Source: a virus (taxonomy: Duplodnaviria > Heunggongvirae > Uroviricota > Caudoviricetes). Taken from it: a stretch of DNA of 13,022 nt. The stretch is taken from the IMG/VR virus record IMGVR_UViG_2534681935_000012; one strand, written 5' to 3'. The number at the start of each line of letters is the position of its first letter. The stretch's first letter is position 1. The position numbers are program-made. Shown piece by piece: positions 9,001-12,000 of this stretch.

Positions 9001-12000
9001 GCCGCAGGAATCAAAGAAAAGAATTTCGATTAAGCAAATATCACTTCAATAAATCGCTTTTAAGGCATCACAATCGCTCTGTGGTGAGGTAAGCACGTGC
9101 AAGGTATACCGATAAGCAGCGAGAATGAAAAATGCGTCAGAATGCGTTTGAGGAGGTTTTAAGAAATGAGTACGATAGCTGAGCTTGTCAGGGCTAATTT
9201 TCGTGAAGAGTTGGTGCGTTGGTATCGGTATCGTTCATCGTCCAGTTTGCCGCTTGATGAGTTGTATGAGCATTCACCTGCCGCACGACGCTATCCGCGT
9301 GACCGTGTTCTTCGACGGTTGTTCAAACTCAACAATGAGTTTCAGCGCAACAGAATTATCCGGAGTCTGGATTTTAAGTGAAGGAGTGAGCATGAGCGAC
9401 CTATCATTAACCCAGCCAAAGCTAAAAGAATGTCCGTTTTGCGGCGGTAATGCTCGTCTGTGGGTTGAGGCCGGAATAAATATTGATGTGTGGGGCTATG
9501 CAGAATGTGACCTCTGTGAAGCCAGGGTGGCATGGGCACCATCAGTTGCTGCGGCTACTGAAAAATGGAACCGGAGAGCAGGAGATGAAGCAAACCTTTC
9601 TGCTTCGCAACGAAGCAATCAGAAATAACGCCATAGACGCCATTCTCTCACTACCCATCGACGACAAGTCACCCCACGAAGTCCACGTTAAAGAACCCAA
9701 GCGCAGCAAAGCGCAGAATGACCGCATGTGGCCGATGCTGAACGATGTTTCGCGTCAGGTGCTATGGCATGGTCAACGGCTGGCGCCGGAAGACTGGAAA
9801 GACCTGTTCACTGCCCTGTGGCTTAAGACCAAAAAACTGGAGCAAAGAAGTGCGCCTGGTATCGACGGTGGCGTTGTCATGCTTGGCGTGCGTACCAGCA
9901 AAATGCGAAAGGCCAGCATGACTGAGCTTATCGAAATCATGTTCTGGTTCGGCTCAGAGCGCAACGTGCGGTGGAGTGATGACTCCCGGCGAGAGTATGA
10001 ATGGTCACAACGAAAAGGGAAGGCTGCATGACTATCAAATCAAATACGCCAGCACACGACAAGGACTGCTGGCAAACGCCGCTCTGGCTTTTTGATGCGC
10101 TGGATATTGAGTTTGGATTCTGGCTGGATTCAGCTGCGAGCGACAAAAACGCTCTGTGCGCTCACTGGCTAACTGAGGCTGACGACGCGCTAAATTCTGA
10201 GTGGATAAGCCACGGTGCAATCTGGAATAACCCACCGTACAGCAATATCAGGCCGTGGGTGGAAAAAGCCGCTGAGCAGTGCATACAACAGCGACAGACG
10301 GTAGTGATGCTTGTGCCAGAGGATATGTCTGTCGGATGGTTCAGCAAGGCTCTGGAGAGTGTTGACGAAGTTCGCATCATCACTGATGGACGGATTAATT
10401 TTATCGAACCATCGACAGGGCTGGAGAAGAAGGGAAACAGCAAAGGCTCAATGTTGCTGATTTGGCGACCGTTCATCAGTCCTCGACGGATGTTTACTAC
10501 CGTATCCAAAGCGGCATTGATGGCGATCGGGCTGGGCGTCAGGAGGGCTGCATGAGGCGACAGCGACGAAGTATCACCGACATCATCTGCGAAAACTGCA
10601 AATACCTTCCAACGAAACGCTCCAGAAATAAACGCAAGCCAATCCCAAAAGAATCTGACGTAAAAACCTTCAATTACACGGCTCACCTGTGGGATATCCG
10701 GTGGCTAAGACATCGTGCGAGGAAAACAAGGTGATTGACGTGATGATTTATTCGGGGCTATATTCCTCAAACGCCAGCAAAATCTGGCGTCGGGATTGGC
10801 GTCCTGGATAGAGACCGCGACAGATACACGCCGCGAGCGTGTTTTTTATTGTCGTATGCACGCGCACATCTGAATTATGGTGGGCTGTGTGGGGGCGGAG
10901 AGATCCGCGCCGGTCGGTTTCCCGGTTACGCCAACCCTGCACAGTTCACCACCAGACGATTGGCGTCGTCGGTGGTGAGTTATTAAGAAACCACCAGAGG
11001 GCGTCATTATGACAACTAAAATTTCTGTTGAAACTCTCTCCCCGATCACCCATAACCAGATTCCTGTTATTACCACCGAACTTTTGGCGCAGCTTTACGG
11101 CACTGAGCCGGTGCGTATTCGCCAGAATCATCATGAGAACAAAGTACGCTTCGTTGAAGGGAAACACTTTTTCAAAGTTGTTGGTAATGACCTTAAAGAA
11201 TTGCGGGTAGCTTTAAACTACTCACAAAATTTGCGGGTTACTTTAAGTAACTCACAAAATTTGCGGGTTACTTTAAGTAACTCACAAAATTTGCAACCAT
11301 CTTTAAGAGGGTTACAAATTTCCCCGAAAGCCCGCTCCCTCATCCTCTGGACAGAACGCGGCGCAGCCCGTCACGCAAAAATGCTCGAAACCGATCGGGC
11401 GTGGGAAGTGTTCGAAAAACTGGAAGACTGCTATTTCAGCCAGTGCGAGAAAAATACTGGCAAACAAGAGAAGAAGCTCAACGGGCTTTCCGCAAAAGAA
11501 ACAGACAGCCTTGTATGGCTGTGGGATTATGCCAACCGCTCACAGGCATTGTTCCGTGAGTTGTATCCCGCATTAAAACTGATTCAGTCTGGCTATTCCG
11601 GCATATGCCACGACTACGGCTATGAGTTCTCGTATATCATCGGGAGGGCGAGGGGCGTTTTAATTAATCACACGCGGGATATAGATATTTATGAGCCTGA
11701 CGGGCCGACGAACCTTCTGGCATGGGAAAGGCTTAAGAACAAAGAGTTGCCGCCTTCACTGCATCGCTACTGACAATTGACAACTTAACAAACCCAGCTT
11801 CGGCTGGGTTTTTTATTGCTGAATTTTCAATGTGAGAGGACATGACAATGAATGAGCTGATAAATAGCAATGCCATCAAAATGACAAGCATTGAAATCGC
11901 TGAGTTGGTGGGAAGCCAACACGGTAATGTCAGAATATCAATAGAACGTCTGGCAAAGCGTGGGGTGATTCAACTTCCTTCAATGCAAAAAGTTGAAAAT

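What the first reader, a model, noticed from the sequence alone, without database searches (positions are those of the whole stretch)
10735..11008. Promoter, hairpin and terminator forming a short transcription unit, followed by a GC-rich structured leader ahead of the antirepressor-like gene
Seen in sequence: TTGACG-18-TATATT directly after ninE; hairpin ACGCCAG/CTGGCGT (10771-10790); intrinsic terminator ACACGC/GCGTGT plus T-run (10826-10850), which would give an RNA of about 80 nt; then a GC-rich stretch with further stems (GCGGA-GAGA-TCCGC near 10895-10908; CACCACC...GGTGGTG near 10947-10977) and repeated decamer GATTGGCGTC (10794 and 10958). Inference: either a small regulatory RNA, or a terminator-gated attenuator controlling the downstream ORF6N gene, possibly read through by N-modified polymerase.
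Basis: partly seen in the sequence, partly recalled or inferred. Interest (0 to 1): 0.6.

Follow-up and report, generated by a model that had tools for sequence, protein, structure and literature searches.

The report
IsrK–C4 antisense switch guarding antirepressor
The stretch between ninE and the antirepressor gene of this Shiga-toxin phage holds two already catalogued small RNAs, IsrK and a P1-type C4 antisense RNA, which together most likely gate translation of the antirepressor that helps wake the prophage.

Summary
They belong to two described RNA families. Rfam places IsrK at 10771-10847 (74.7 bits, threshold 50) and a C4 antisense RNA at 10873-10956 (66.7 bits, threshold 45). The P1 "a1b1 target" motif matches the first two IsrK hairpins at 45.9 bits, just under its threshold of 46.7.

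The "80-nt RNA" is IsrK. The "GC-rich structured leader" is a separate C4-like RNA. The repeated decamer GATTGGCGTC is the a1/a2 target pair of C4.

In 17 phages, and again in 100 distinct viral contigs, the two recognition words of C4 (a', b') change from phage to phage. Their complements change with them in two places: inside IsrK (a1, b1) and just before the antirepressor start (a2, b2).

Best reading: this is a P1 immI-type switch. C4 masks the ant ribosome-binding region. IsrK, a terminated decoy with the same words, relieves the block. Terminator read-through sets the ratio of the two RNAs. Gifsy-1 experiments validated exactly the a1:a' base pairs.

Differences from the models: there is no icd gene, and the Gifsy-1 "orf45" is not conserved. 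The kind is already known. This Stx-phage copy is unannotated in RefSeq, and I found no experimental test of it.

The parts
10552..10734 (+). ninE, the upstream neighbour. Its stop codon abuts the -35 hexamer.
   Evidence: Pfam NinE, E = 8e-44. Annotated as ninE in phage 1717.
10735..10764 (+). PisrK promoter: -35 TTGACG (10735-10740), 18-nt spacer, -10 TATATT (10759-10764). Predicted start near 10771.
   Evidence: Consensus scan, 10 of 12 matches. The -35 and -10 bases are invariant in 17 phages. The Gifsy-1 counterpart (TTGACA-18-TATATT) drives anrP transcription experimentally (PMC4825925). The start site here is inferred by homology.
10771..10847 (+). IsrK small RNA, 77 nt: hairpin 1, hairpin 2, single-stranded spacer, intrinsic terminator.
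   Evidence: Rfam RF01394, 74.7 bits (threshold 50), full-length match to model positions 1-77. Six of 7 pairs of hairpin 1 change on both sides among homologues.
10796..10802 (+). a1 word UUGGCGU in the loop of IsrK hairpin 2 (hairpin spans 10791-10806). It is complementary to a' of C4.
   Evidence: Exact 7-nt complement of a'. The a1:a' helix is 99% paired, and 4 of the 6 pairs tested (10796-10801) change on both sides. Positions 10798 and 10801 correspond to G28 and G31, whose pairing with C162 and C159 was shown by compensatory mutants in Gifsy-1.
10811..10817 (+). b1 word GAGACCG in the IsrK spacer. It pairs with b' over 7 bp, including one G-U.
   Evidence: Read from the sequence. Cognate b'-to-spacer duplexes average -10.2 kcal/mol against -3.6 for non-cognate pairs, matched by 0 of 5000 permutations. 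The P1 b1 site lies at the same relative position.
10826..10847 (+). IsrK intrinsic terminator: stem 10826-10831/10837-10842, then a U-run.
   Evidence: Terminator scan and Rfam structure line. A T-run lies within 70 nt upstream of C4 in 94 of 100 distinct viral contigs.
10873..10956 (+). C4-type antisense RNA (Rfam match). The predicted mature RNA is 10879-10954. It has a closing stem (10879-10894/10935-10950), hairpin 1 (10895-10908), hairpin 2 (10909-10926) and a 3' tail ACCA (10951-10954).
   Evidence: Rfam RF01695, 66.7 bits (threshold 45). Fold -44 kcal/mol, z = -3.9. Closing stem 99% paired with 5 pairs changing on both sides; hairpin 1 has 5 of 5 such pairs. The mature ends are inferred from the annotated P1 C4 RNA. 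It corresponds to STnc1160 / 'orf45' of Gifsy-1.
10915..10921 (+). b' recognition word CGGUUUC in the loop of C4 hairpin 2.
   Evidence: Same structural position as b' of P1. Specificity statistics.
10928..10934 (+). a' recognition word ACGCCAA in the single-stranded junction of C4.
   Evidence: Same structural position as a' of P1. Covaries with a1 and with a2. In viral contigs its reverse complement is found upstream in 82 of 100 loci and downstream in 94 of 100, against 0.6% and 0.3% for non-cognate words.
10960..10966 (+). a2 word UUGGCGU, starting 6 nt after the predicted C4 3' end. It forms the core of the second copy of the decamer.
   Evidence: Exact complement of a'. The a':a2 helix is 96% paired over its five variable pairs, all 5 of which change on both sides; the two A-U pairs at its end do not vary and are 91% paired.
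10947..10977 (+). Alternative hairpin: the C4 3' strand CACCACC (10947-10953) pairs with GGUGGUG (10971-10977), with a2 in the loop.
   Evidence: 95.8% paired in 17 phages, 2 pairs changing on both sides. It is the MFE of 10945-11015, z = -3.9. It is mutually exclusive with the C4 closing stem.
10987..10992 (+). b2 word GAAACC, 4 nt upstream of the Shine-Dalgarno sequence of ant.
   Evidence: Six-nt complement of b'. Cognate b'-to-leader duplexes average -11.2 kcal/mol against -5.0 for non-cognate, matched by 0 of 5000 permutations. In viral contigs 68 of 80 cognate pairs have at least 6 nt of complement, against 6% of non-cognate pairs.
10997..11011 (+). Shine-Dalgarno GAGGG (10997-11001) and the ant start codon (11009-11011).
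   Evidence: Read from the sequence. The ATG is an invariant column in 17 phages.
11009..11773 (+). ant, the regulated antirepressor gene (ORF6N plus P22_AR_C domains).
   Evidence: Pfam ORF6N 2.2e-18 and P22_AR_C 1.3e-23. 56% identical to Gifsy-1 AnrP over about 150 aa. Annotated as Ant or AntA in phages 1717, 2851 and Nil2.

Best explanation
This is a P1 immI-type RNA switch placed in the nin region of a lambdoid Shiga-toxin phage. It controls translation of the Ant antirepressor.

Proposed sequence of events:
1. A promoter next to the ninE stop codon starts transcription near 10771.
2. Most transcripts stop at the intrinsic terminator and give the 77-nt IsrK RNA. IsrK displays word a1 in a hairpin loop and word b1 in a single-stranded spacer.
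3. Transcripts that read through continue into a tRNA-like, C4-type RNA (about 10879-10954) and then into ant. So do pR transcripts arriving from upstream.
4. The two exposed words of C4, a' (junction) and b' (hairpin loop), pair with a2 and b2 in the ant leader. b2 lies 4 nt before the Shine-Dalgarno sequence. This pairing keeps ribosomes off ant.
5. IsrK carries the same two words as the leader. It competes for C4 and so relieves the block. Read-through of the terminator sets the ratio of decoy to repressor.
6. Ant then inactivates the CI repressor and speeds induction.

What is shown: the identity of the parts, their structures, and the three-way co-variation of the words.

What is taken from homologues: a1:a' pairing and activation of translation by IsrK (Gifsy-1); repression through a2/b2 (P1, from the P1 record annotation and Weinberg's summary); RNase P processing of C4 (P1, from my own knowledge); and the contribution of Ant to induction (phi24B).

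What is inferred for this phage: processing of C4, the direction of the effect on ant, and the decoy role of IsrK.
For: **Family matches.** isrK scores 74.7 bits (threshold 50) and C4 scores 66.7 bits (threshold 45). c4-a1b1 scores 45.9 bits (threshold 46.7) over the first two IsrK hairpins.

**Conserved arrangement.** All 15 other non-P1 phages fetched have isrK and C4 in tandem directly upstream of an antirepressor-type gene. P1 itself gives a weak isrK match over its a1/b1 sites.

**Method control.** The same procedure recovers the annotated a1, b1, a2 and b2 sites of P1.

**Word a.**
- a1:a' is 99% paired, and 4 of 6 pairs change on both sides.
- a':a2 is 96% paired over its five variable pairs, all of which change on both sides.
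- In 100 distinct viral contigs, the complement of a' lies upstream in 82 and downstream in 94. Non-cognate controls give 0.6% and 0.3%.

**Word b.**
- Cognate duplexes average -10.2 and -11.2 kcal/mol, against -3.6 and -5.0 for non-cognate pairs. Zero of 5000 permutations match this.
- In viral contigs, 55 of 80 (b1) and 68 of 80 (b2) loci have at least 6 nt of complement, against 3% and 6% for non-cognate pairs. b2 ends a median of 10 nt before the ATG.

**Experiments in relatives.**
- In Gifsy-1, IsrK supplied in trans raises anrP translation more than 100-fold. The compensatory mutants G28A/C162U and G31A/C159U fall exactly on a1:a' pairs, which map to window positions 10798:10932 and 10801:10929 (PMC4825925).
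- A processed RNA, STnc1160, exists downstream of IsrK and depends on the isrK promoter.
- The decoy idea for a1/b1 was proposed for P1 (Weinberg 2010 supplement, citing Citron and Schuster).
- A phi24B ant knock-out lowers late-promoter activity after induction to 27-56% of wild type (PMC3064807).

**C4 sequence features.** The RNA has a tRNA-like closing stem followed by ACCA.
Against: - In this phage b2 is only 6 nt long and stops 4 nt short of the Shine-Dalgarno sequence. The family median has it overlapping.
- Minimum-energy co-folding does not favour the intermolecular pairs: dimer -69.3 against -68.9 kcal/mol for the two monomers. That method cannot model loop-loop contacts.
- In Gifsy-1, a1 mutations in cis raised basal anrP translation rather than lowering it. 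Constitutive STnc1160 made IsrK toxicity worse rather than better. A simple "C4 represses, IsrK titrates" scheme does not predict either result.
- No expression, processing or binding data exist for the Stx-phage copy in the papers I could search.
Confidence: 0.7

Rival explanations
1. The Gifsy-1 model applies as published. The read-through transcript is not cut into a separate C4 RNA. Instead it folds into an inactive shape in which a1/b1 pair in cis with the C4 region. IsrK in trans displaces that pairing and opens the ribosome site of an upstream ORF that starts inside the C4 region. Translation of that ORF is then coupled to ant.
For: Direct genetics, native gels and 30S footprinting in Gifsy-1 support this model. 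The Gifsy-1 module is 81% identical to the window and has the same a word. The AUG of that ORF is conserved at window position 10877.
Against: In the window the ORF from that AUG is 33 codons long and stops 31 nt before the ant ATG, so the AUGA overlap used for coupling in Gifsy-1 is absent. Among 17 phages the frame is 10 to 45 codons long or fuses to ant. The published structures used only nt 1-180 of the transcript, which ends before a2 and b2. They therefore do not explain why a2 and b2 track a' and b'.
Confidence: 0.2
2. The region is a plain terminator-gated attenuator. The hairpin-plus-terminator is simply a nin-region terminator of the pR operon, overridden by N-modified polymerase, and the downstream structure is passive.
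For: The unit lies inside the rightward early operon between ninE and ant. The terminator is canonical.
Against: This reading does not explain the dedicated conserved promoter, the two covariance-model matches, or the three-way co-variation of the words. It is better seen as one layer of the main explanation than as an alternative to it.
Confidence: 0.04
3. IsrK mainly acts in trans on host mRNAs as an Hfq-dependent small RNA. Its link to ant would then be secondary.
For: Rfam names the family an Hfq-binding RNA. Other Stx-phage small RNAs do act on host regulators (PMC4104026, PMC7547250).
Against: The only variable parts of IsrK are the words that match the neighbouring C4. No host target is reported in the papers read. 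I found no IsrK entries in the supplements held for the EHEC Hfq and RNase E crosslinking studies.
Confidence: 0.05
4. The region encodes a small protein. Candidates are the 57-aa GTG ORF 10839-11012, annotated as orf34 in VT2-Sakai, and the 45-aa TTG ORF 10849-10986.
For: Several phage records annotate a hypothetical protein here.
Against: Neither the 33-aa nor the 45-aa ORF has a Pfam match; the 57-aa ORF was not scanned. The ORFs are absent or in another frame in most homologues, while the RNA pairs are kept by compensatory changes.
Confidence: 0.01

Closest known systems
isrK-orf45-anrP locus of Salmonella prophage Gifsy-1 (Hershko-Shalev et al. 2016, PMC4825925)
   Same: The order of parts is the same: promoter, 77-nt IsrK with terminator, structured RNA (STnc1160 / 'orf45' region), then an ORF6N antirepressor. 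The region is 81% identical in nucleotides. The a word is identical. The validated pairs G28:C162 and G31:C159 are conserved. Ant is 56% identical to AnrP over the N-terminal domain.
   Different: The b word differs: GAAACC here, AUCACCG in Gifsy-1. The upstream ORF is 33 rather than 45 codons and does not overlap the ant start. The module lies upstream of Q in the nin region, whereas in Gifsy-1 it lies downstream of Q. Ant carries a P22_AR_C domain and a 30-nt repeat insertion. No isrJ follows.
immI region of phages P1 and P7: a1 b1 - c4 - a2 b2 - icd - ant
   Same: The C4 fold is the same, and a' and b' sit at the same structural positions. The a1-to-b1 spacing is 8 nt here and 7 nt in P1. 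The a2-to-b2 spacing is 20 nt here and 22 nt in P1. a2 follows the C4 3' end by a few nt. b2 lies next to the ribosome site. The regulated gene is an antirepressor.
   Different: There is no icd gene; b2 precedes ant's own Shine-Dalgarno sequence. A strong terminator after b1 releases a1/b1 as a separate small RNA. P1 has only a weak isrK match (35 bits). The Ant proteins are unrelated. No C1-type operator is known here.
c4-a1b1 motif (Rfam RF03163; Weinberg et al. 2010)
   Same: Two hairpins with a1 in the second loop and b1 just 3' of it. This is exactly the first 40 nt of IsrK.
   Different: The score is 0.8 bit below the curated threshold. The motif as defined does not include the terminator, and neither Weinberg's paper nor the Gifsy-1 paper links it to IsrK.
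CI RNA with seqA/seqC of satellite phage P4
   Same: A processed RNA flanked by two copies of its own target. The Gifsy-1 authors named it as the structural analogue.
   Different: P4 CI causes premature transcription termination rather than masking a ribosome site. I made no sequence comparison here.
sar RNA and ant of phage P22
   Same: A small RNA limits antirepressor synthesis, and the antirepressor shares the P22_AR_C domain.
   Different: sar is transcribed from the opposite strand across the ant start. Here no promoter-like site is found on the minus strand, and the regulator lies on the same strand upstream.

Membership tests
IsrK small RNA (Rfam RF01394) | Covariance-model score at or above the curated threshold, full length | tested here: met
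   74.7 bits against a threshold of 50, model positions 1-77
IsrK small RNA (Rfam RF01394) | Own promoter directly upstream and an intrinsic terminator at the 3' end | tested here: met
   TTGACG-18-TATATT plus stem and U-run. The promoter bases are invariant in 17 phages. Activity was not measured.
IsrK small RNA (Rfam RF01394) | Lies upstream of an AnrP-type antirepressor gene reached by read-through | tested here: met
   Ant is 56% identical to AnrP. The gene order is the same in 16 phages.
IsrK small RNA (Rfam RF01394) | A 45-codon upstream ORF whose stop overlaps the antirepressor start (translational coupling) | tested here: not met
   The frame from the conserved AUG (10877) is 33 codons long and ends 31 nt before the ATG. 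Its length and phase vary among homologues.
IsrK small RNA (Rfam RF01394) | A stable RNA of about 77 nt in cells that binds Hfq | not testable with these tools
   Needs Northern blot, RNA-seq or Hfq pull-down from a lysogen.
C4 antisense RNA, P1 immI type (Rfam RF01695) | Covariance-model score at or above the curated threshold | tested here: met
   66.7 bits against a threshold of 45, model positions 1-87
C4 antisense RNA, P1 immI type (Rfam RF01695) | Long closing stem enclosing two hairpins, supported by compensatory changes | tested here: met
   Closing stem 99% paired with 5 pairs changing on both sides; hairpin 1 has 5 of 5 such pairs. z = -3.9.
C4 antisense RNA, P1 immI type (Rfam RF01695) | a' and b' complementary to a2 and b2 downstream, at the ribosome site of the regulated cistron | tested here: met
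   a2 at 10960-10966 and b2 at 10987-10992, 4 nt before the Shine-Dalgarno sequence. Co-variation.
C4 antisense RNA, P1 immI type (Rfam RF01695) | A second copy of the targets (a1, b1) upstream of C4 | tested here: met
   a1 at 10796-10802 and b1 at 10811-10817
C4 antisense RNA, P1 immI type (Rfam RF01695) | Excised from a longer transcript by RNase P | not testable with these tools
   Only the sequence hallmarks are present: a tRNA-like stem followed by ACCA at 10951-10954. That P1 C4 is an RNase P substrate is from my own knowledge.
C4 antisense RNA, P1 immI type (Rfam RF01695) | Acts through an icd-type leader cistron, with Rho-dependent polarity on ant | tested here: not met
   There is no ORF between b2 and ant, and b2 precedes ant's own Shine-Dalgarno sequence. 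P1 icd lies at L017 3471-3692. The Rho-dependent polarity in P1 is from my own knowledge.
c4-a1b1 motif (Rfam RF03163) | Covariance-model score at or above the curated threshold | tested here: inconclusive
   45.9 bits against a threshold of 46.7 at 10758-10810. Close relatives score 47-51 bits.
Lambda nin-region terminators overridden by N | An intrinsic terminator inside the pR operon that is read through by N-modified polymerase | not testable with these tools
   The position in the pR operon is shown. Read-through needs reporter fusions with and without N.
P22 sar-type cis-antisense control of ant | A regulator transcribed from the opposite strand across the ant start | tested here: not met
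   No promoter-like site on the minus strand in 10400-11300. The Rfam matches are on the plus strand.

The most novel reading that the evidence does not exclude
The a and b words may form a combinatorial RNA address shared between prophages in one cell. There are at least 20 a words and 32 b words, giving 45 combinations among 80 loci. The Stx1 and Stx2 phages of strain Sakai carry identical words, and so does this window. IsrK or C4 made by one prophage would then switch the antirepressor of the other. That would couple their induction, and hence Shiga toxin output, through an RNA sponge, an antisense RNA and an mRNA operator. None of these is annotated in RefSeq genomes.
Probability: 0.3. 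Interest if true: 0.6.

Novelty: already known. Interest (0 to 1): 0.3.

Why it matters
Ant-type antirepressors help lift CI repression in Stx phages. A phi24B ant knock-out lowers late-promoter activity after induction to 27-56% of wild type. Late transcription is what produces Shiga toxin.

Matches to this module (276-nt query, megablast; about half at under 90% identity) occur in 912 of 5426 complete E. coli genomes. RefSeq annotates only the protein gene there, and several phage records place a hypothetical protein over the C4 RNA.

Recognising the region as an IsrK-C4 switch gives a concrete, testable RNA layer in the control of Stx prophage induction. It also ties the Gifsy-1 IsrK work to the older P1 c4 literature. 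IsrK is the a1b1 element plus a terminator, and "orf45"/STnc1160 is C4.

None of this is a new kind of system.

Tried and rejected
- **tRNA or tmRNA.** I considered this for the GC-rich stretch. ARAGORN finds none.
- **Conserved small protein.** Rejected. The 33-aa and 45-aa ORFs have no Pfam match, and the frames are not conserved.
- **Third copy of GGCGTC at 11000-11005 as a partner of a2.** This would sequester the ribosome site, and the leader's minimum-energy fold suggests it. Rejected because the hexamer stays the same in phages whose a word differs.
- **Minimum-energy co-folding of C4 with IsrK or with the leader.** It gave no gain over the monomers and is uninformative for loop contacts.
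- **Column-wise pair counts for the b words.** Not possible on the MAFFT alignment because the loop lengths differ. I replaced them with an anchor-based duplex and permutation test.
- **Terminator helix.** It scored only 72% paired in the alignment. By eye, the terminator stems in the sequence dump differ in length between phages and end in a T-run in every locus, so I attribute the low score to misalignment; no per-locus terminator scan was run.
- **Experimental data on the Stx-phage copy.** Searches found nothing in the main text of the EHEC small-RNA papers or in the supplements held for two of them.
- **Strauch et al. 2008 on phage 2851 antA.** Not held.
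Full report
**Observation.**
- TTGACG-18-TATATT lies at 10735-10764, directly after the ninE stop codon.
- The hairpin ACGCCAG/CTGGCGT lies at 10771-10790.
- A terminator stem at 10826-10842 is followed by a U-run.
- The small hairpin GCGGA-GAGA-TCCGC lies at 10895-10908.
- CACCACC (10947-10953) faces GGTGGTG (10971-10977).
- GATTGGCGTC occurs at 10794 and at 10958.

On their own the promoter and terminator matches are what shuffled sequence would give: one found against 0.8-0.9 expected. 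Conservation is what makes them real.

**Identification.** A scan of the window against Rfam gives two matches above the curated thresholds inside the finding.
- isrK (RF01394) at 10771-10847: 74.7 bits, threshold 50.
- C4 antisense RNA (RF01695) at 10873-10956: 66.7 bits, threshold 45.
- A third family, "a1, b1 targets of C4 antisense RNA" (RF03163), matches 10758-10810 at 45.9 bits. This is 0.8 bit under its threshold, and the match covers the first two hairpins of IsrK.

No tRNA or tmRNA is present.

**Source and context.** The region is 100% identical to the Stx2 phages Nil2, 1717 and 2851, and 98.9% identical to VT2-Sakai and many Stx1a phages. It lies in the rightward early operon. The gene order is cro, cII, replication genes, ninB, dam, ninE, this module, ant, roi, ninG, Q.
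- The downstream gene (11009-11773) has ORF6N and P22_AR_C domains.
- The next gene has KilAC/ANT and Rha domains.
- A 276-nt query spanning the module finds matches in 912 of 5426 complete E. coli genomes, about half of them at under 90% identity. RefSeq annotates only the protein gene there.

**Relatives.** I fetched 15 further phages spanning 71-87% identity, plus P1. They were Gifsy-1, Min27, ArgO145, TL-2011a/b, an O157 typing phage, SfV, phiP27, APSE-2 and others.
- All 15 carry isrK and C4 in tandem, 20-25 nt apart, directly upstream of an antirepressor-type gene (ORF6N, Bro-N or similar).
- P1 gives a sub-threshold isrK match (35 bits) over its annotated a1/b1 sites.
- The APSE-2 GenBank record already annotates isrK, C4 and the a' and b' regions side by side.

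**Structure.** I aligned the 17 sequences (A1).
- The -35 and -10 bases and the ant ATG are invariant columns.
- For the intramolecular helices plus a1:a', 94% of cells are standard pairs, against 36-43% when partners are slid by 1-3 columns.
- Twenty-two pairs change on both sides, a count reached by 0 of 500 shuffles.
- IsrK hairpin 1 has 6 of 7 pairs changing on both sides.
- The C4 closing stem is 99% paired, and C4 hairpin 1 has 5 of 5 such pairs.
- The 76-nt core 10879-10954 folds at -44 kcal/mol (z = -3.9) into the Rfam structure and ends in an unpaired ACCA.

**The recognition words.** In P1 the annotated sites are a1, b1, C4, a2, b2, icd and ant1.
- P1 a' (CUGUCAA) lies in the single-stranded junction of C4.
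- P1 b' (UCACUAAC) lies in the loop of hairpin 2.

The same structural positions in the window hold these words:

| Word | Sequence | Window position | Location |
|---|---|---|---|
| a' | ACGCCAA | 10928-10934 | C4 junction |
| b' | CGGUUUC | 10915-10921 | loop of C4 hairpin 2 |
| a1 | UUGGCGU | 10796-10802 | loop of IsrK hairpin 2 |
| b1 | GAGACCG | 10811-10817 | IsrK spacer |
| a2 | UUGGCGU | 10960-10966 | 6 nt past the predicted C4 3' end |
| b2 | GAAACC | 10987-10992 | 4 nt before the Shine-Dalgarno GAGGG (10997-11001) of ant (ATG 11009) |

The spacings resemble P1: a-to-b is 8 nt upstream and 20 nt downstream here, against 7 and 22 nt in P1.

**Co-variation of the words.** Other phages use other words, matched in all three places. 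Min27, for example, has a' UAGUGCUAA with GAUUAGCACC twice, and b' UGUUUCGA with UCGAAAC twice.
- The a1:a' helix is 99% paired, with 4 of 6 pairs changing on both sides.
- The a':a2 helix is 96% paired over its five variable pairs, all of which change on both sides.
- For b, where loop lengths differ, I took the loop and target segments by alignment anchors and compared duplex energies. Cognate pairs average -10.2 kcal/mol (IsrK spacer) and -11.2 kcal/mol (ant leader). Non-cognate pairs average -3.6 and -5.0. Zero of 5000 permutations match this.

**Independent sample.** I scanned IMG/VR with a C4 pattern and obtained 100 distinct loci with full flanks.
- The reverse complement of the a' core is found upstream in 82 and within 45 nt downstream in 94. 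Non-cognate words give 0.6% and 0.3%.
- The b' loop has at least 6 nt of complement in the cognate b1 region in 55 of 80 loci and in the b2 region in 68 of 80. Non-cognate values are 3% and 6%.
- b2 ends a median of 10 nt before the first ATG.
- A T-run precedes C4 in 94 of 100 loci.
- There are 20 a words, 32 b words and 45 combinations.

**Link to experiments.** In Gifsy-1 (PMC4825925):
- The isrK promoter drives anrP transcription by read-through, but the mRNA is not translated.
- IsrK in trans raises anrP translation more than 100-fold.
- AnrP induces the prophage.
- The mutants that defined the pairing, G28A with C162U and G31A with C159U, map to window positions 10798:10932 and 10801:10929. 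These are a1:a' pairs. The module lengths are the same in both phages.
- The authors also detected a processed RNA, STnc1160, downstream of IsrK. It depends on the isrK promoter and is complementary to IsrK.
- They compared the system with P4 CI/seqA, not with P1 c4.

Weinberg et al. 2010 described the a1b1 motif as two hairpins. They recalled the earlier proposal that a1/b1 compete with a2/b2 for C4, which would allow ant expression.

For Stx phages, a phi24B ant knock-out lowers late-promoter activity after norfloxacin to 27-56% of wild type. The authors cite a similar result for phage 2851, which is identical to the window in this region.

**Mechanism proposed.**
1. The promoter next to ninE makes mostly the terminated IsrK.
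2. Read-through transcripts, and pR transcripts from upstream, carry C4 and ant.
3. C4 is probably excised as in P1. It pairs through a' and b' with a2 and b2 and hinders ribosome binding at ant.
4. IsrK offers the same two words and competes for C4.
5. Ant inactivates CI and accelerates induction.

The parts, folds and word matching are shown here. a1:a' pairing, the IsrK effect and Ant function are shown only in relatives. Processing, the sign of the C4 effect, and N-dependent read-through are inferred for this phage.

**Differences from the models, and difficulties.**
- There is no icd cistron. b2 precedes ant's own ribosome site.
- The Gifsy-1 "orf45" starts at an AUG conserved at 10877, inside the 5' end of C4. 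In the window that frame has 33 codons and ends 31 nt before the ant ATG. In other phages it has 10-45 codons or runs into ant. The AUGA coupling of Gifsy-1 therefore cannot operate here, and the region is not a conserved protein gene.
- b2 is short (6 nt) and does not overlap the Shine-Dalgarno sequence.
- Minimum-energy co-folding shows no gain.
- Two Gifsy-1 results do not fit a simple repressor-and-decoy scheme. a1 mutations in cis raised basal translation, and constitutive STnc1160 did not relieve IsrK toxicity.
- A conserved alternative hairpin pairs the C4 3' strand with GGUGGUG and places a2 in its loop. It is 95.8% paired. This suggests that folding choices in the unprocessed transcript also matter.

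**Verdict.** The thing is a known kind, IsrK plus C4 antisense RNA of the P1 immI type, in a well-known phage lineage. What remains open is experimental. I found no paper that tests the Stx-phage copy. The Stx1 and Stx2 phages of strain Sakai share identical words with this window, so RNA cross-talk between co-resident toxin prophages is possible.

Noticed in passing
window 11201-11294: A 30-nt tandem repeat (3.1 copies, 92% matches) lies inside the ant reading frame. It adds about 28 residues ([10 protein letters not shown] repeats) within the ORF6N domain relative to Gifsy-1 AnrP.
   Followed up: partly
window 10839-11012 (L138 440-613): VT2-Sakai annotates a hypothetical protein (orf34) over the C4 RNA, and several other phage records do the same. 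The frame is not conserved among homologues, so this is probably a mis-annotation.
   Followed up: partly
L010 838-1980; L011 832-1668: In SfV-like phages the AUG conserved in the 5' end of C4 is in frame with the antirepressor gene. The records annotate long ORFs that start upstream of IsrK and span IsrK and C4, for example SfV orf37 'immunity region'.
   Followed up: no
L049 9712-11105; L035 4678-5418: One IMG/VR contig has three C4-pattern matches spaced 656 nt apart on the same strand. Another has two matches 659 nt apart. At least two of the L049 copies carry different a' and b' words.
   Followed up: no
L017 3231-3312 (phage P1): P1 gives a sub-threshold isrK match (35 bits) over its a1/b1 sites, including a terminator-like hairpin with a T-run after b1. 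P1 may therefore also release a short a1b1 RNA.
   Followed up: no
L138 and L139, 301-661: The Stx2 phage VT2-Sakai and a Stx1 phage from the same strain (Sakai) carry identical modules. They differ from the window at only four positions (10741, 10770, 10771, 11018), none in the a or b words.
   Followed up: yes
window 889-947, minus strand: The lambda cIII thermoregulator element (Rfam RF01804, 88.5 bits) is present, as expected for a lambdoid early-left operon.
   Followed up: no
window 7545-8237 versus L140 5177-7618: Phage 1717 carries an ISEc8 insertion between the helicase gene and the HNH endonuclease gene. In the window the ORFs at 6172-7548 and 7545-8237 abut, so the insertion seems absent. 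The window may be closer to 2851 or Nil2 than to 1717 in this respect.
   Followed up: no
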